From an uncultured Pseudomonadales bacterium (GTDB lineage: Bacteria; Patescibacteriota; Microgenomatia; UBA1400; PJMF01), in contig CAYWDM010000001.1 in the NCBI GenBank assembly GCA_964457085.1, positions 111,690 through 175,689 on the forward strand: a stretch of DNA of 64,000 nt, in the 5' to 3' direction. Below the pieces are notes generated by a model that saw only the letters and a list, made by a program, of their open reading frames with translations, made no database searches and was not told the DNA's origin. Shown here in pieces: positions 9,038 through 55,316 of the stretch; position 1 is the first letter of the stretch, and every line of letters starts with the position of its first letter. The translations under genes and the position numbers were made by a program.

Positions 9038-9583
9038 ATGGGCAAACGATCAGGCTTTACAGTCACAGGGTTGATACTCAAACGAACGAGTGTCGGCGAA
9101 GCTGACCGCATTGTGACTCTTTTCACTCCAGATCAAGGCAAAGTAGTTTGTGTGGCCAAAGGTGCTCGTAAGCTAACTTCCTCTCAGCGAGGCTCTCTGG
9201 AACCAGGCAACCTTGTGAAAGCGATGATCATCCCCACTCAATCTCTCTGGCTGCTCACTCAAACGACATTGATTTCTGATTTGGGGGATTGTTGGAAAGA
9301 TTTGGCTCAATTGCGTCGAGTAAGCCAAATTCTTGAGATAACTGACAAACTGGTTGCGGAAGCCGATCCAGATCCAGAACTGTTTATTTTGGTTAGCCAA
9401 TTACTCACTAGAATCATCAAGCGAACTGCAAGTGATATCGTGGTGCGGGATCAATTAGACTCAATCATTCAGCATCTGGGTTTCCCAACTCTAGCCGAGT
9501 CTCAACACCAATCAATTTCTGATTATGTTAGTGAGCTAACTGATCGTGAAATTAAAAGTTTTAAATATCTTAAAGTTGAGTGA
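9038..9583 (+). CDS. recO: DNA repair protein RecO (short form, N-terminal OB domain)
   Basis: LILKRTSVGEADRIVTLFTPDQGKVVCVAKGARKLTS aligns to the RecO N-terminal domain (E. coli [38 protein letters not shown]). Only 181 aa, so the C-terminal zinc region is absent. Confidence 0.65.
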   Translation: MGKRSGFTVTGLILKRTSVGEADRIVTLFTPDQGKVVCVAKGARKLTSSQRGSLEPGNLVKAMIIPTQSLWLLTQTTLISDLGDCWKDLAQLRRVSQILEITDKLVAEADPDPELFILVSQLLTRIIKRTASDIVVRDQLDSIIQHLGFPTLAESQHQSISDYVSELTDREIKSFKYLKVE

Positions 9584-9641: not shown

Positions 9642-10634
9642 ATGCCTCAAGATCCAATCAATCTTCAGTACACTACTATCAAGTCACCACTCCCTGATTT
9701 CATTTACGATGGGTTGAAACAATTTTCTGCAACAGCTAACGCCTATCAGCCACAACCGAAGATCCTAATTGATAAGCTCGCTGCCAAACACCACTTGCCT
9801 AGTGAACTGTTTTTCTTGACTGCCGGCATTGATGAAGCCATTCAAATGTTAATTCTGACGTACAGCAAGAATACCTTTGTATTTACCCCAACATACATTG
9901 TCTATGCTGATGTCGAGGTTTTTGGCGGCAAACTAACTCGCCTTCCTTCGATTATCGACTCCACATTTACCATTGATCCTCAACACATCCCCGGTGCTTC
10001 ATTAATTTTTCTTGCAAATCCAAACAATCCTTCTGGATTTACTGAAAAGTCTGTTGTAATGGAGTTAATTAAAAATAACCCCCAAGCAATTGTAGTCATC
10101 GATGAGGCTTATGGTGAGTTTGCAGAACTCTCAGTTATTGATGAAGTTCCAAAATATCCAAACTTAGTGGTGATGCGCAGTTTTTCTAAAGCATATAGCA
10201 TGGCTGGTAATCGAGTTGGTTATATCGTCGCAGCTCCGAATATCATTGCTGCCTGTCGCAATAAAGTGCAGTGGTCAAACATCTCGTACCTTTCGATAGG
10301 TGCAGCAGTGGTAGCACTCAACCATGAGAACTATTTTTTGGATCTGAGACAAAAAATTGGCCAGAGTAGGGATGAACTCCGTGAATTTTTAGTTGCCCAA
10401 GGTTTTAGTGTCCTGCCCTCAAAAATTAATGCTCTACTATTGCGGTTCTCATCTGAGACAGCTGGAACTGAGTTTGCTGAGTTCTTAACTGCTGAAGGTT
10501 TTATCATCAGCCATGGCAACGGGAATAGTAATATTGGTCTGGATAAATCGTTTGTCAGAATTGCGATTGGTACAGATGAACAGCTGGCAAAATTGCGTCA
10601 ATCCATTCTAAAATTCCACAGCGTGTTACAATAA
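9642..10634 (+). CDS. Class I/II PLP-dependent aminotransferase (HisC-like)
   Basis: RSFSKAYSMAGNRVGYIVA, a PLP-lysine motif of the histidinol-phosphate aminotransferase type. Confidence 0.65.
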   Translation: MPQDPINLQYTTIKSPLPDFIYDGLKQFSATANAYQPQPKILIDKLAAKHHLPSELFFLTAGIDEAIQMLILTYSKNTFVFTPTYIVYADVEVFGGKLTRLPSIIDSTFTIDPQHIPGASLIFLANPNNPSGFTEKSVVMELIKNNPQAIVVIDEAYGEFAELSVIDEVPKYPNLVVMRSFSKAYSMAGNRVGYIVAAPNIIAACRNKVQWSNISYLSIGAAVVALNHENYFLDLRQKIGQSRDELREFLVAQGFSVLPSKINALLLRFSSETAGTEFAEFLTAEGFIISHGNGNSNIGLDKSFVRIAIGTDEQLAKLRQSILKFHSVLQ

Positions 10635-10639
10635 ACACA

Positions 10640-10846
10640 GTGTTGATCCGCCTGGCAGGCGGGGAGCTATAACAAGTTCAGATAAAGCGGATAGGCAGAA
10701 TTGCGTTTCAGCCTATCAAAGGGGGTGGAACCGCGATTCCGCTCAGGATCTTAAAATCCTGACTAGAACCGTCCCTCTACAGTATTTTTTAATTAAATTG
10801 CTGTGGAGCGACGGTTTTTTATTACCCACCACAGCCGAAAGGTTTC
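10640..10846 (+). promoter_or_regulatory. T-box leader upstream of glyQS
   Basis: Exact T-box core AGGGGGTGGAACCGCG at 10720-10735 (consensus AGGGUGGNACCGCG). The variable N is A, complementary to the U73 discriminator usual in tRNA-Gly. A GGC codon occurs in a 5' hairpin (ccgcctGGCaggcgg). A ~200 nt structured leader directly precedes an aaRS gene. Confidence 0.55.
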
Positions 10847-12265
10847 ATGACTGACCAAATCCAGTCACCTCAACCACTTACACTCGACACCATCGTGGCA
10901 CTAGCCAAACGTCGAGGTTTTGTATTTCCCACCTCTGCAATTTATGGCGGTCTTGCCAACTCATATGACTATGGTCCACTCGGAGTCCAACTACTAAAAA
11001 ACATTAAAGATGCCTGGTGGCAGAGTTTTATCACTTCTAGACCTGACATGGTTGGACTTGACAGTCAGATAATGCTCCATCCTCGTACCTGGGAAGCTTC
11101 TGGTCACGTAGCTTCGTTTAGTGATCCTTTAGTTGAAGATCTCAAAACCAACAAGCGCTATCGAGCTGATCATTTGATCAAAGCCTGGCTGGCAACACAA
11201 ACTGATGAGACTCTTCGTGCCACCTCAGTTGAAGACATGAAAATAGAGGACATGGCGAAGTTTATCCTCGATCATCAAATTAAAAGTCCTGAAGGTAATC
11301 AAATCTCAGCACCTCGCTCTTTTAATCTCTTATTTGAGACTGCAATTGGTGCTGTCGCTGGTGAAAAATCCAAGGTCTATCTACGTGGTGAAACCGCACA
11401 GGGAATTTTTAGTAACTTTAAACAAGTACTGGACACCACTCGTACCAAACTACCATTTGGAGTTGGACAAATCGGAAAAAGTTTTCGCAATGAAATTACC
11501 ACTGGTCAGTTCATCTTCAGAACCTTTGAATTTGAGCAAGCAGAAATTGAGTACTTCTTCAACCCAGCACTGAGTGATTGGCAACAAATCATGAGCGACT
11601 GGAAAGACTCAATGTGGAGTTTTGTCACACAGAAACTGGGCATCCAGCAGGAACATCTGCGATGGCGCCAACACACCGATAAAGAACGCAGTCACTATAG
11701 TAAAGACACCTACGACCTGGATTATGAATATCCATTTGGGTGGAGTGAGCTTTGGGGAGTGGCTTACCGTACTGATTATGACCTCAAGCAGCATATGCAA
11801 TTTAGTGGTGAATCTCTTGAGTACATCGATCCATCCACTGGTGAGCGATTTGTACCACATGTGATTGAACCCGCAGTTGGTGTTAACCGCCTATTACTCA
11901 TGGTGCTCTGTGATGCATATTCTTTTGACAGTGAAAAACAGCGAACTGTACTTAAATTCGCACCAAGCATCGCTCCATACAAAGCAGCGATCTTTCCACT
12001 GGTCAAAAACAAACCAGAATTAGTCGGTTTAGCCCAAACTATTTTTGCAAGTCTATCCAAAAAGACTGCTGTTGCTTGGGATGACCGAGGTAATATCGGT
12101 AAACGATATTTAGCTCAAGATGAGATTGGTACTCCAATTTGTATCACCGTTGACTATCAATCACTTGAGGATCAAACGGTTACCATTCGACATCGTGACA
12201 GTGCTCTACAAGAACGACTACCAATAGAAAAACTTGAGGCATACATCGTAGCTATGATAAGCTGA
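10847..12265 (+). CDS. glyQS: Glycyl-tRNA synthetase, alpha2 (GlyQS) type
   Basis: AIYGGLANSYDYGPLGVQLLKNIKDAWWQ and class II aaRS motifs throughout. Confidence 0.9.
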   Translation: MTDQIQSPQPLTLDTIVALAKRRGFVFPTSAIYGGLANSYDYGPLGVQLLKNIKDAWWQSFITSRPDMVGLDSQIMLHPRTWEASGHVASFSDPLVEDLKTNKRYRADHLIKAWLATQTDETLRATSVEDMKIEDMAKFILDHQIKSPEGNQISAPRSFNLLFETAIGAVAGEKSKVYLRGETAQGIFSNFKQVLDTTRTKLPFGVGQIGKSFRNEITTGQFIFRTFEFEQAEIEYFFNPALSDWQQIMSDWKDSMWSFVTQKLGIQQEHLRWRQHTDKERSHYSKDTYDLDYEYPFGWSELWGVAYRTDYDLKQHMQFSGESLEYIDPSTGERFVPHVIEPAVGVNRLLLMVLCDAYSFDSEKQRTVLKFAPSIAPYKAAIFPLVKNKPELVGLAQTIFASLSKKTAVAWDDRGNIGKRYLAQDEIGTPICITVDYQSLEDQTVTIRHRDSALQERLPIEKLEAYIVAMIS

Positions 12266-41318: not shown

Positions 41319-41370
41319 AAGACTATTCTAGCAGAAGTGCAAAATGGGAGTTAGTATCCTCATGAAAATG

Positions 41371-41443
41371 AGCCAGAGGTGGGAATCGAACCCACGACCT
41401 ACGGTTTACGATACCGCCGCTCTACCAACTGAGCTACACTGGC
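41371..41443 (-). tRNA. tRNA-Thr (anticodon CGU)
   Basis: Folded by hand: acceptor GCCAGTG/CTCTGGC (one T-T mismatch), D-arm GCTC/GAGC with AGTTGGTA loop, anticodon arm GCGGT/ACCGT with loop ATCGTAA, T-arm GTGGG/CCCAC with loop TTCGATT. The overlapping plus-strand ORF 41344-41694 is spurious. Confidence 0.85.
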
Positions 41444-44767: not shown

Positions 44768-46189
44768 TCACGGTCCAATCAACGCCGGTGCCGCACTAGT
44801 CGGTACCGTTTCAAAGATGAGTAAATCACCAGATTCTGACCACTTTGCAGTGATCTCATGGTCAGTAGTATTCTCAATCACTAAATCCGCACTCTGACAA
44901 TTTATGCCCACCGTGAAGATAGGATAAAATGGATAGAAAGTGTGAGAAGGAGCTTTGGCTACTACAAGACCTGGTACTTGGCTTGCCCAGTTTTTGATGA
45001 CTGAAGCATTGGCACAAATACCACCAGCACTGATGTTTGCCGCGAATTTATATTGATCCCAGCCGGTCTCGTTCGTCTGTTGACAGAACGACCAAGTGCC
45101 ATTGGCTGGAACTACTATTGTCTGGTTTAAAGTTGACCAAAGCGCTACGTTATAGGCTTGGCCATCTGCAACCGGGACATCGCGGGTGAGATTGATTGTC
45201 AATTGCCCTGAACCAGGTACGAGTGTACCTCCAGGTAGACCAGCAGCTGCATTACCAGCTTCGGCCTGCCAATTCTCTGGCAAGAGACCCATCTCTTGGA
45301 AAAACTGAATGCTTGCTGACTGGAAAAATGCATATTCTCCAGGAGAACCAAATGATAGGCTGGTCTGGACATCAAAACCGCCCAAACCTCGACCGGCATA
45401 AATATCAGCCGTCGCTACCAACTGACGTCGGTAGGGCTCATCGTGGTTCCACCCATAAAGAACCTTCACTCTTTCCTCTACAGTCATGTCAGAGCGATAA
45501 CCCATGCGATTTACTTCATAGGCCATTGCAAAAAACATGACTTTCTGGTCCCAGAAGTCACAAGATTTGACAACCGGGTCAGTTGAGGTTTGAAGCGCCA
45601 CCTTACAGATTCGCCAAGCAGTGGTGGGAATAAACCCACCAGCACCAAGCTCACCTGCAGACGCGTGCCCCAACCAATCTGAATAATCTGACTTGATGTA
45701 TTGAGCTGCCACTGGGTTATGAGCCCGAATGTCCTGCTCTTTCCATAAAGCCAATAACTCCAGGCCAGCTTCCTTTTCTTTAGCAGCTATGAGGTTTGTG
45801 TTCCCCATTGCTGATGCAAGACCAGGCGAGCTACCCAGATTTGTTCCGCCTGCACTTTCGCCGCTATGGAGAGACTGCAAAATGGCGAGGTCAAGCTGAC
45901 CTTTCCACTGAGCGTTCACCCATGTGATTGCGGCTTGAGCGTCAGCCACAGCTGTCGGATCAAGTCCGATCGCCTTTACCGTCACCTCGTCGGTGGCAGA
46001 GAGCGAGTAGGAGAGTTCCGACCGAACCCCGAGGATCTGAGCCATCATGCGCTCATAACCCTCGGGGTTGGTATCATGTTGGTACAACAGGTAGACGAAT
46101 CCACCCATCGGAACAACACAGCTGACGACTGTGGCCACCACGATCGCAAGCAAGATGAGTTTTTTTGATAAGTTACGATGTCGCCTCAC
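44768..46189 (-). CDS. Membrane-anchored cell-wall-active protein with a lytic-transglycosylase-like region and a C-terminal VanW-like domain
   Basis: N-terminal TM helix. SGESAGG...AGELGAGGFIPTTAW resembles the SLT ES / AGAxGLMQ motifs. The C-terminus GGICANASVIKNWASQVPGLVV...YPFYP..G.DL.IEN resembles the VanW domain. Confidence 0.45.
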   Translation of the reverse strand: MRRHRNLSKKLILLAIVVATVVSCVVPMGGFVYLLYQHDTNPEGYERMMAQILGVRSELSYSLSATDEVTVKAIGLDPTAVADAQAAITWVNAQWKGQLDLAILQSLHSGESAGGTNLGSSPGLASAMGNTNLIAAKEKEAGLELLALWKEQDIRAHNPVAAQYIKSDYSDWLGHASAGELGAGGFIPTTAWRICKVALQTSTDPVVKSCDFWDQKVMFFAMAYEVNRMGYRSDMTVEERVKVLYGWNHDEPYRRQLVATADIYAGRGLGGFDVQTSLSFGSPGEYAFFQSASIQFFQEMGLLPENWQAEAGNAAAGLPGGTLVPGSGQLTINLTRDVPVADGQAYNVALWSTLNQTIVVPANGTWSFCQQTNETGWDQYKFAANISAGGICANASVIKNWASQVPGLVVAKAPSHTFYPFYPIFTVGINCQSADLVIENTTDHEITAKWSESGDLLIFETVPTSAAPALIGP

Positions 46190-52445: not shown

Positions 52446-52607
52446 AACTATTCCTTAATTAACAAAAATAAAATCTATCTACTCATATCTTACCAGATTA
52501 AAAAAACTAACTACAAGTCTGGTGAAAAGTAGTGAATAGATTAATATAGTATTGTTAAAGCCGTAGTTATTCTAACAAACGAGCACTATGTATCGATGTA
52601 TACTAAT

Positions 52608-52776
52608 ACTACCTTCGGGGTAGGTTGATCTTGCGTAACCGCGAGAAAATACCAATCGGTGGTACACTCCACGAGTCTTGCTTGCGAGACATGATCTGGT
52701 GAAACTCCAGAAGCGACCGTATAGTCGGGTATAAAGAAGGTACTCAAAAAACCACGCTATTTTGCGTGGTGTTTTG
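52608..52776 (+). promoter_or_regulatory. FMN riboswitch (RFN element) with intrinsic terminator
   Basis: P1 UACCUUC/GAAGGUA. 5' UUCGGGGUAGGUUGA..ACCG..CGGUGGUA and 3' UGGUGAAACUCCAGAAGCGACCGUAUAGUCGGGUAUAAAGAAGG, closely matching RFN UGGUGAAAUUCCAAAGCCGACAGUGAAAGUCUGGAUGGGAGAAGG. Terminator CCACGC/GCGTGG + UUUU at 52752-52776. CCCCGAAG at 52782-89 is complementary to the P1 5' strand, and GGGGCAU pairs across the SD. Confidence 0.75.
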
Positions 52777-54711: not shown

Positions 54712-55240
54712 GCGGGTATTGGGCAGGTGTTTCATTACTCAAGCACGAGTAGTTAATCATCCTCACTTGCCGGCAGGAGTCATCCCATGCCTCGCATACT
54801 CGGCAGCTTGCCACCCATTTTGCCACTTCATAAAAATACTGGCTCTGCGAGCCACTATTTTTATGAGCGGGTAAAGGGAGTCGGACCCTCTTCTCATCCT
54901 TGGGAAGGATGCATTCTACCGGTGAACCATACCCGCACCATGAGACCAGTGCTGATTATAACCAACTTCATCATTTTTGCACCAAACGAATCTGTTCACC
55001 TGATCTAGCAGGAACGTTTTCACCATTTTTCATCTTGAGATAATATTGAAATTAGCTAAAGATTATCTTTGAGGTCATCAGGGAGTCTCCCACGGGACTA
55101 GGCAGGAGTTTGCTAATTTAGAACACCAGCAATTACACTTGTTCTCTTGCTGGCGGAACCCTTATTCATTTCATTCATCGGGTTGATCCGGTCCAAGCTC
55201 ATCATAAACAAAAAAATCCCTTGCGGGATATTTTTGTTTA

Positions 55241-55316
55241 TGGCGACCTCAACGGGAGTCGAACCCGTGATCTTCTCCGTGACAGGGAGACATGTTAACC
55301 ACTACACCATGAGGCC
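55241..55316 (-). tRNA. tRNA-Asp (anticodon GUC), CCA encoded
   Basis: Folded by hand: acceptor GGCCTCA/TGAGGTC, anticodon arm TCTCC/GGAGA with loop CTGTCAC, T-arm ACGGG/CCCGT with loop TTCGACT, discriminator G then CCA. The overlapping plus-strand ORF 55147-55437 is spurious. Confidence 0.9.

What the first reader, a model, noticed from the sequence alone, without database searches (positions are those of the whole stretch)
10640..10846. T-box riboswitch on glyQS in a CPR-like genome, possibly acting at translation
The exact AGGGGGTGGAACCGCG T-box core has its variable base matching a U73 discriminator, as expected for tRNA-Gly. A GGC codon is displayed in a 5' hairpin. Downstream, GCUGUGG..(U-rich)..CCACAGC forms a hairpin adjacent to the weak SD and is not followed by a U-tail. 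Control may therefore be by SD sequestration rather than termination. That mechanism has been described for Actinobacterial ileS T-boxes; applying it here is inference.
Basis: partly seen in the sequence, partly recalled or inferred. Interest (0 to 1): 0.5.

Follow-up and report, generated by a model that had tools for sequence, protein, structure and literature searches.

The report
Minimal glycine T-box with terminator
The leader of the glycyl-tRNA synthetase gene is a real tRNA-sensing T-box riboswitch, but a stripped-down form that lacks both structures thought to hold the tRNA, and it ends in a classical transcription terminator rather than a ribosome-binding-site trap.

Summary
The T-box core, the UGGA bulge, GGC in a 5' hairpin loop and the GCUGUGG/CCACAGC hairpin are at the stated positions. 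That arm is the antiterminator's 3' strand, and the hairpin is followed by UUUUUU. So the platform is a textbook terminator/antiterminator switch, not SD sequestration. Modelled SD accessibility is the same in both states.

Rfam's T-box model scores only 27.5 bits (threshold 93). Stem I is about 30 nt: a K-turn, a 6-bp helix and a UGGCA apical loop. It has no elbow-binding distal platform, and a 21-nt single-stranded linker stands where Stem II would be.

This is a conserved family. I collected 52 leaders from CPR genomes and metagenomes, some Clostridia-like. About 48 are clean members. Nearly all with an identifiable downstream gene sit before glycyl-tRNA synthetase genes. All helices covary (90% of cells paired against 63% shuffled), and 40 have overlapping terminators. 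A model built without the window scores it at E = 4e-14.

Published schemes pair a short Stem I with an obligatory Stem II and translational control. I found no description of this combination. Verdict: a T-box, probably a new architectural variant. The translational reading is not supported.

The parts
10624..10632 (+). Putative extended -10 promoter, TGTTACAAT. It overlaps the stop codon of the upstream aminotransferase ORF. The transcript would start about 7-9 nt downstream, just before Stem I.
   Evidence: Read from the sequence. A TANNWT hexamer lies within 30 nt upstream of the leader in 38 of 52 family members. The same TGnTAcAAT or TACAAT is seen in L001, L015, L018, L041 and L053. This is an inference; the generic promoter scan did not call it.
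10639..10668 (+). Ultrashort Stem I. C-stem: A10639-U10668, G10640-C10667, U10641-G10666. K-turn: bulge GUU 10642-10644, with sheared G10645-A10665 and A10646-G10664. Helix: 10647-10652 with 10658-10663. Apical loop: UGGCA, 10653-10657.
   Evidence: Rfam and R2 alignments. Covariation across 52 leaders: C-stem 90% of cells paired, with compensatory changes in all 4 pairs; Stem I helix pairs show GC/CG/AU/UA exchanges. Stem I length is 30-35 nt across the family.
10654..10656 (+). Specifier codon GGC (glycine), flanked by U10653 and A10657.
   Evidence: U precedes GGC in 16 of 16 loci found through protein homology, and A follows in 14 of 16 (with L041 read from the alignment because the script picked an earlier GGC). 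The downstream gene is GlyRS.
10669..10689 (+). Single-stranded, A-rich linker in place of Stem II and IIA/B. It ends in the AAGCG (RRRNG) motif at 10685-10689.
   Evidence: Family linker length is 6-27 nt, median 17. No conserved helix appears in the alignments. The RRRNG consensus is conserved. The motif is defined in PMC7778990.
10690..10717 (+). Stem III: 10690-10696 paired with 10711-10717, followed by AA at 10718-10719.
   Evidence: All five modelled pairs have compensatory changes, and 94.7% of cells are paired. The AA flank is present in 14 of 16 and 16 of 16 loci.
10720..10778 (+). Antiterminator (discriminator). Helix A1: 10720-10725 with 10773-10778. T-box bulge: UGGAACC, 10726-10732. 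Helix A2: 10733-10739 with 10766-10772, including the sensor pair G10733-U10772. A lineage-specific inserted hairpin lies at 10743-10762.
   Evidence: A1 and A2 each have about 91% of cells paired and 4 of 6 pairs with compensatory changes. The bulge is invariant in 16 of 16 loci, with G at the A2 sensor position in 13 of 16 and its partner U in 14 of 16. The fold evaluates at -20.2 kcal/mol.
10767..10823 (+). Intrinsic terminator. The hairpin spans 10767-10816; its 5' arm, CCGUCCCUCUACAG, is the antiterminator 3' strand. The U-tract UUUUUUAUU follows at 10815-10823.
   Evidence: MFE fold. Hairpin dG is -26.4 kcal/mol. The same overlapping hairpin plus U-run is found in 40 of 52 leaders. The terminator state scores -43.2 against -20.2 kcal/mol for the antiterminator over 10718-10823.
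10800..10835 (+). Terminator 3' strand GCUGUGG (10800-10806) pairs with CCACAGC (10829-10835), with the U-tract in the loop.
   Evidence: dG is -12.4 kcal/mol. It is not above chance in the window alone (p = 0.37). The equivalent pairing is significant in L005, L006, L007, L038, L041, L053, L096, L124 and L160 (p <= 0.025). Its function is unknown.
10837..10849 (+). SD GAAAGG (10837-10842) and the start codon ATG (10847-10849) of glyS.
   Evidence: The SD lies outside all three hairpins, and its modelled accessibility does not depend on the state.
10847..12265 (+). The regulated gene: a glyQS-type (alpha2) glycyl-tRNA synthetase of 472 aa.
   Evidence: Pfam tRNA-synt_2b and HGTP_anticodon. It is 53-72% identical to the GlyRS of CPR MAGs.

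Best explanation
This is a glycine-specific T-box riboswitch of minimal architecture. It controls glyS by transcription attenuation.

Proposed sequence of events:
1. Transcription starts about 8 nt downstream of an extended -10 box.
2. The first roughly 30 nt fold into a K-turn and a 6-bp helix. Its five-base apical loop, UGGCA, displays the GGC codon to the anticodon of tRNA-Gly(GCC).
3. A 21-nt single-stranded linker leads to Stem III and the discriminator.
4. If the bound tRNA is uncharged, its 3' UCCA end pairs with UGGA in the T-box bulge. This stabilises the antiterminator (-20 kcal/mol on its own), and RNA polymerase reads into glyS.
5. If the tRNA is charged or absent, the antiterminator 3' strand CCGUCCCUCUACAG pairs with CUGUGGAGCGACGG instead (-26 kcal/mol), and transcription stops at the U-tract.

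Shown here: every sequence element, the covariation of every helix, the mutual exclusivity of the two folds, and the absence of a Stem I distal platform and of Stem II.

Inferred: tRNA binding, sensing of charging, termination itself, and the promoter.
For: - The T-box core, the UGGA bulge, the K-turn, the RRRNG-Stem III-AA flanks and the sensor G-U pair are all present.
- The specifier GGC matches the regulated gene, GlyRS.
- tRNA-Gly in this genome has discriminator U73.
- In the family of 52 leaders, 90.3% of helix cells are paired, against 63.1% in shuffles (0 of 500 reach it) and 46% or less with slid partners. 21 of 25 pairs show compensatory change.
- Model R2, built only from metagenome members, scores the window at 55.7 bits, E = 4e-14, over its full length.
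- A terminator overlapping the antiterminator 3' strand, followed by a U-run, is found in 40 of 52 leaders. In the window it is -26.4 kcal/mol.
- Among the 31 metagenome leaders where a downstream ORF could be called, 20 precede a glyQS-type GlyRS and 4 precede a glyQ alpha subunit. The 16 named loci, including the window, were all fetched as glyS loci.
Against: - RF00230 scores far below its gathering threshold (27.5 against 93 bits).
- The field holds that transcriptional T-boxes need the elbow-binding IDTM, and that a truncated Stem I barely binds tRNA without Stem II (PMC7583486). It is therefore not evident how tRNA is captured fast enough during transcription.
- The cognate tRNA-Gly(GCC) gene is not in the window or in any fetched locus.
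- There are no experimental data.
Confidence: 0.8

Rival explanations
1. Translational T-box. The GCUGUGG/CCACAGC hairpin or a neighbouring structure occludes the SD unless uncharged tRNA stabilises an antisequestrator, as in actinobacterial ileS leaders.
For: - Stem I is short with an apical-loop specifier, as in class III translational T-boxes (PMC10482949).
- The hairpin ends 1 nt from the SD and recurs in relatives.
- Some distant family members (L085, L142, L189, L121, L094) appear to have the SD inside or opposite the alternative hairpin.
Against: - A strong hairpin plus U6 overlaps the antiterminator.
- The SD is outside the third hairpin.
- SD unpaired probability is 0.44 in both the antiterminator-forced and the terminator-forced ensembles, with no consistent shift in relatives.
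- The third hairpin is not above chance in the window on its own (p = 0.37).
Confidence: 0.05
2. Two-layer control. Attenuation is primary. In read-through mRNA the terminator 3' strand is captured by the downstream complement. This keeps the terminator from re-forming and sets the structure next to the SD, affecting translation initiation or mRNA stability.
For: The three-strand arrangement recurs with different sequences in at least 9 relatives (p <= 0.025 each). In the seven of those with a GAAAGG-type SD, and in the window, the complement lies directly 5' of the SD.
Against: - Thermodynamic modelling predicts no change in SD accessibility.
- The arrangement is absent from close relatives L001, L015 and L017.
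- The space between the U-tract and the SD is so short that adjacency to the SD is nearly unavoidable.
Confidence: 0.15
3. A decayed, non-functional remnant of a canonical glyQS T-box that lost the distal part of Stem I.
For: The Rfam score is low. Only about 16 of about 45 CPR-type glyS loci carry the element.
Against: - The same truncated form recurs in about 48 diverse leaders, with compensatory changes in every helix.
- K-turn, specifier, bulge and sensor pair are invariant or nearly so.
- Terminators are intact.
- The form occurs in lineages as far apart as CPR and Clostridia.
Confidence: 0.03

Closest known systems
Class II T-box (Bacillus subtilis glyQS type; Rfam RF00230)
   Same: Both are glycine-specific with a GGC specifier. 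Both have a K-turn at the base of Stem I, a single-stranded linker instead of Stem II and IIA/B, Stem III with RRRNG/AA flanks, a UGGA bulge, a G-U sensor pair, and a terminator/antiterminator platform upstream of GlyRS.
   Different: [quoted passage not shown] The specifier sits in a 5-nt apical loop as U-GGC-A. The canonical Firmicute leaders fetched here have A-GGC-G in an internal loop. Stem I is about 30 nt rather than about 100 nt.
Class III T-box (actinobacterial ileS, e.g. Nocardia farcinica or Mycobacterium tuberculosis; Sherwood et al. 2015 as cited in PMC7583486 and PMC10482949)
   Same: Both have a short Stem I without IDTM, with the specifier in a penta- or hexanucleotide apical loop above a K-turn.
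   Different: Class III requires Stem II (S-turn) plus the IIA/B pseudoknot to bind tRNA, is isoleucine-specific and acts by SD sequestration. Here there is no Stem II, the specificity is glycine, and the platform is an intrinsic terminator.
Staphylococcal glyS T-box with stem Sa insertion (PMC9177973, PMC4574755)
   Same: Both are glycyl T-boxes with a lineage-specific insertion in the antiterminator/terminator domain. The window has a 20-nt hairpin (10743-10762) in the A2 loop, and L018 has an insert of about 100 nt there.
   Different: The staphylococcal leaders keep a full-length Stem I. I did not compare the inserts, so no relation between them is claimed.

Membership tests
T-box riboswitch (general) | The specifier codon in Stem I matches the amino acid of the regulated gene. 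| tested here: met
   GGC lies at 10654-10656 in the apical loop, and the downstream ORF is GlyRS. The same holds across the family.
T-box riboswitch (general) | A conserved T-box sequence forms a 7-nt bulge, UGGNACC, with N complementary to the tRNA discriminator base. | tested here: met
   UGGAACC lies at 10726-10732, so N = A. The window's tRNA-Gly(CCC) has U73. The cognate GCC isoacceptor is not available.
T-box riboswitch (general) | Antiterminator helices A1 and A2 are mutually exclusive with a downstream terminator or sequestrator. | tested here: met
   A1 and A2 covary. The terminator's 5' arm is the A1/A2 3' strand, in the window and in 40 of 52 leaders.
T-box riboswitch (general) | Stem III carries purine-rich 5' RRRNG and 3' AA flanks, and a G-U pair tops A2 (the aminoacylation sensor). 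| tested here: met
   AAGCG at 10685-10689, AA at 10718-10719 and G10733-U10772. All are conserved in the unbiased set of 16.
T-box riboswitch (general) | The Rfam RF00230 covariance model reaches its gathering score. | tested here: not met
   27.5 bits against 93. The deficit comes from 76 Stem I positions and 40 Stem II positions with almost no counterpart. Several canonical Firmicute leaders also fell below 93.
T-box riboswitch (general) | Binds uncharged cognate tRNA and switches expression. | not testable with these tools
   This requires in vitro antitermination or binding assays.
Class I/II transcriptional T-box | A long Stem I with the distal interdigitated T-loop platform (AG bulge plus distal loop) that stacks on the tRNA elbow. 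| tested here: not met
   Stem I spans 10639-10668 only. The promoter and the upstream ORF's stop codon abut it. Family Stem I length is 30-35 nt.
Class III translational T-box (actinobacterial ileS) | A Stem II S-turn domain and the IIA/B pseudoknot between Stem I and Stem III. | tested here: not met
   The linker is 21 nt (family median 17) with no conserved pairing.
Class III translational T-box (actinobacterial ileS) | The expression platform sequesters the SD. | tested here: not met
   The SD is outside all hairpins, and its accessibility is equal in both states. A U-tailed terminator is present.
Class III translational T-box (actinobacterial ileS) | A short Stem I with the specifier in a 5-6 nt apical loop. 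| tested here: met
   The UGGCA pentaloop at 10653-10657.

The most novel reading that the evidence does not exclude
A natural, widespread class of transcriptional T-box works with only two RNA-RNA contacts, anticodon and NCCA end. It has neither the elbow-binding platform nor Stem II. This contradicts the current rule that tRNA binding must be reinforced by one or both. The loss may be offset by the all-G/C GGC:GCC pairing. The invariant flanking U, and the usual A, of the apical loop might extend it into a 4-5 bp kissing helix with tRNA positions 33-37.
Probability: 0.45. Interest if true: 0.7.

Novelty: new variant of a known kind. Interest (0 to 1): 0.58.

Why it matters
The current view is that tRNA capture needs either the Stem I distal platform or Stem II, and that transcriptional T-boxes in particular need the platform for fast binding (PMC7583486, PMC10482949). 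A covariation-supported family with neither, mostly ending in terminators, tests that view directly.

At about 115-150 nt from the K-turn to the end of the antiterminator, these may be unusually small natural T-boxes. That makes them attractive for structural work and for engineering tRNA sensors.

The result also extends T-box regulation to CPR/Patescibacteria. I found no report of that in the searchable literature. Standard Rfam annotation at the gathering threshold misses these leaders.

Tried and rejected
- Whole-window Rfam scans at the gathering and E-value thresholds found no other T-box.
- A second near-exact core, GGGTGGAACCACG at 45442-45454 (minus strand), lies inside a 473-aa ORF (reads YGWNHDE). 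It has no partner strand and scores E = 0.59 with R2. I rejected it as a coding coincidence.
- The generic promoter/terminator scan found nothing in the leader, because the terminator loop exceeds its 8-nt limit.
- RNAalifold on the raw MAFFT alignment gave a poor consensus that paired UGG of the bulge. I replaced it with an explicit T-box structure and Infernal realignment.
- My first terminator script picked downstream hairpins and had to be rewritten.
- R1 hits in Bacillus, Neobacillus and Clostridia loci turned out to be canonical long-Stem-I leaders matching through the shared 3' half.
- The metagenome pattern also returned canonical glyQS leaders and GC-rich coding false positives, which I filtered out.
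- A search for tRNA-Gly(GCC) in 60 loci found none.
- SD sequestration was tested by constrained partition functions and rejected. Some start codons among the relatives were mis-called in that script.
- Sherwood 2015 and Vitreschak 2008 are not in the library, so an earlier mention cannot be excluded.

Full report
**Observation**

The stretch 10634-10850 lies between an aminotransferase ORF (9642-10634) and a 472-aa ORF (10847-12265). That ORF carries the class II aaRS core and HGTP anticodon domains, making it a glyQS-type GlyRS.

- AGGGGGTGGAACCGCG at 10720-10735
- a UGGA bulge at 10726-10729
- GGC at 10654-10656 in the loop of a 5' hairpin
- complementary GCUGUGG (10800-10806) and CCACAGC (10829-10835), ending one base before the SD GAAAGG

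The 13-nt core is expected 0.01 times per window by chance. The tRNA-Gly(CCC) gene in the window has a U discriminator, which matches the A of UGGA.

**What Rfam says**

RF00230 does not reach its gathering score: 27.5 bits against 93 (E = 2.5e-4 on 451 nt, 0.035 on the whole window). The alignment shows why. The K-turn, Stem III, T-box and antiterminator align well. However, 76 model positions of Stem I are replaced by 7 nt, and the 40 positions of Stem II by none.

**The expression platform**

CCGUCCCUCUACAG is the 3' strand of the antiterminator, and it pairs with CUGUGGAGCGACGG. The resulting hairpin spans 10767-10816 (-26.4 kcal/mol) and is followed by UUUUUU at 10815-10820. The antiterminator fold alone is worth -20.2 kcal/mol. 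The terminator state of the same segment is worth -43.2 kcal/mol. This is the usual T-box logic: the antiterminator needs tRNA to win.

It leaves the SD outside. The modelled unpaired probability of the SD is 0.44 whether the antiterminator or the terminator is enforced. SD sequestration is therefore not supported.

**Relatives**

The closest GlyRS loci in the genome collection are mostly CPR/Patescibacteria MAGs at 53-72% identity. Their labels include Paceibacterota, Roizman-, Woese-, Levyibacteria and Microgenomates. About 16 of the 45 or so CPR-type loci carry the same leader.

After canonical glyQS leaders and coding false positives were removed, about 40 non-redundant leaders of the same build remained.

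Among the 31 metagenome leaders where a downstream ORF could be called, 20 precede a glyQS-type GlyRS and 4 precede a glyQ alpha subunit. One precedes a PurU-like ACT plus formyltransferase protein.

Some members have a GlyRS 68-72% identical to Clostridia MAGs. A human-gut member is 75-80% identical to Oscillospiraceae-type proteins. The build is therefore not confined to CPR.

**Structure test**

A covariance model (R1) was built with an explicit T-box-style structure and used to realign 52 leaders (A2). Results:

- 90.3% of helix cells form standard pairs, against 63.1% in shuffles (0 of 500 reach the observed value).
- With partners slid by 1-3 columns, 46.4% or less are paired.
- 21 of 25 pairs show compensatory changes.
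- The covariation score is 0.676, against 0.194 in shuffles.
- Every helix contributes: K-turn C-stem, Stem I, Stem III, A1 and A2.

A second model (R2) was built only from metagenome members. It matches the window end to end at 55.7 bits (E = 4e-14 for 64 kb), and nothing else in the window scores.

**Anatomy of the family**

- Stem I totals 30-35 nt: a 3-4 bp C-stem, a K-turn (UGA opposite GGAG or UGAG), a 3-8 bp helix and an apical loop.
- The loop always holds U-GGC, followed by A in most cases. In the 16 loci found through protein homology, and so unbiased by my search pattern, U is present in 16 of 16 and A in 14 of 16.
- Canonical Firmicute leaders fetched in the same search have A-GGC-G in an internal loop.
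- The linker is 6-27 nt (median 17), A-rich and without conserved pairing.
- The discriminator hallmarks are intact: the AAGNG flank 5' of Stem III, AA 3' of it, the invariant UGGAACC bulge, and the G-U sensor pair on top of A2.

40 of 52 leaders have a simple terminator that begins 8-16 nt inside the antiterminator 3' strand and ends in a 5-8 nt U-run. By my reading of the sequences printed, L093 has a longer terminator, and L092, L097, L119 and L172 have composite ones followed by a U-run. The scan did not call these five. In L085, L142, L189, L121 and L094 the SD appears to lie in or opposite the alternative hairpin. Translational versions of the build may therefore exist.

**Comparison with what is known**

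A 2023 scheme defines four classes (PMC10482949):

| Class | Stem I | Stem II | Notes |
|---|---|---|---|
| I | long, with IDTM | present | |
| II | long, with IDTM | replaced by a single-stranded linker | glyQS type, glycine-specific |
| III | short, specifier in a 5-6 nt apical loop | required | |
| IV | intermediate length | as in III | |

The same paper states that binding is augmented by the IDTM, by the Stem II S-turn, or by both.

A 2020 review states that transcriptional T-boxes generally require the IDTM. It adds that a truncated Stem I hardly binds tRNA without Stem II (PMC7583486).

A 2024 study of glycyl T-boxes suggests that the strong GGC:GCC pairing is why glycyl leaders can do without Stem II (PMC11404447).

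The window's leader combines a class III Stem I with a class II linker and a terminator, so it has neither reinforcement. I found no paper describing this combination, and none reporting T-boxes in Patescibacteria. TBDB notes that class I hits with a truncated Stem I were re-scored with its translational model, so such sequences may sit unremarked in databases.

**Mechanism**

Best supported (0.8): tRNA-Gly(GCC)-dependent transcription antitermination, as set out under the best explanation.

The open point is how tRNA is captured in time. One idea comes from the loop sequence. U-GGC-A is complementary to tRNA positions A37-C36-C35-G34-U33, so a 4-5 bp kissing helix is conceivable. This is inference only.

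**Third hairpin**

The pairing of the terminator 3' strand with a second complement just 5' of the SD is not above chance in the window alone (p = 0.37). It recurs with different sequences in nine relatives (p <= 0.025 each). It does not gate the SD in the models. Its role is unexplained. Candidates are holding the terminator strand in read-through mRNA, stabilising the mRNA after leader processing, or acting as a standby site for the ribosome.

**Verdict**

The T-box call is supported and the translational mechanism is not. The element belongs to a conserved, previously unremarked minimal variant of the glycyl T-box.

Noticed in passing
window 52607-52745 (+): An FMN riboswitch (RF00050) scores 70.5 bits, above its gathering score of 66.2. 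It is the only other Rfam cis-regulatory hit in the window.
   Followed up: no
window 54865-54936 (-), 55241-55316 (-), 41370-41443 (-): tRNA-Gly(CCC), tRNA-Asp(GTC) and tRNA-Thr(CGT) genes. tRNA-Gly(CCC) has U73 and A37. It is not cognate for the GGC specifier.
   Followed up: partly
window 45442-45454 (-): GGGTGGAACCACG, one mismatch from the T-box core, lies inside a 473-aa ORF (44768-46189, minus strand) and reads YGWNHDE. It is a coding coincidence, not a riboswitch.
   Followed up: yes
window 10725-10743: In the terminator state, the T-box bulge GGUGGAA can pair with UUCCGCU (the A2 5' strand region). The bulge would then be masked when the antiterminator is not formed. A shorter GGAA/UUCC or GAA/UUC complement is visible in L001, L038, L096 and L193.
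   Followed up: partly
L183 8262-8385 and 8430-8563: Two R1 hits in tandem, each with its own terminator, lie upstream of a 297-aa ORF with no Pfam match rather than a GlyRS. The first copy lacks the UGA K-turn strand and may not be of the ultrashort type.
   Followed up: partly
L087 925-1054: An ultrashort glycine leader precedes an ACT plus formyltransferase (PurU-like formyl-THF deformylase) gene. The build is therefore also used outside aaRS genes, in one-carbon/glycine metabolism.
   Followed up: partly
L082 6325-6459, L198 2405-2539: These Clostridia-like members have a short apical-loop Stem I but extra hairpins between Stem I and Stem III. They could be a Stem II plus pseudoknot, which would make a glycine class III-like leader with a terminator.
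   Followed up: no
L085, L142, L189 (also L121/L149, L094/L140): In these family members the hairpin alternative to the antiterminator contains the SD, or an anti-SD faces it, and there is no clear U-tract. They look like translational versions of the same minimal build.
   Followed up: partly
L018 2666-2891: This leader is almost identical to L015 but carries an insertion of about 100 nt, GC-rich and structured, inside the antiterminator A2 loop. The window itself has a 20-nt inserted hairpin at the same place (10743-10762).
   Followed up: no
L001-L042 (record titles): Many loci whose GlyRS is 60-70% identical to the window's are labelled 'uncultured Pseudomonadales' or 'Gammaproteobacteria'. 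Given their similarity to CPR MAGs, these labels are probably taxonomic mis-assignments.
   Followed up: no
window 9038-9583 (+): A recO-like gene lies two genes upstream of glyS.
   Followed up: no
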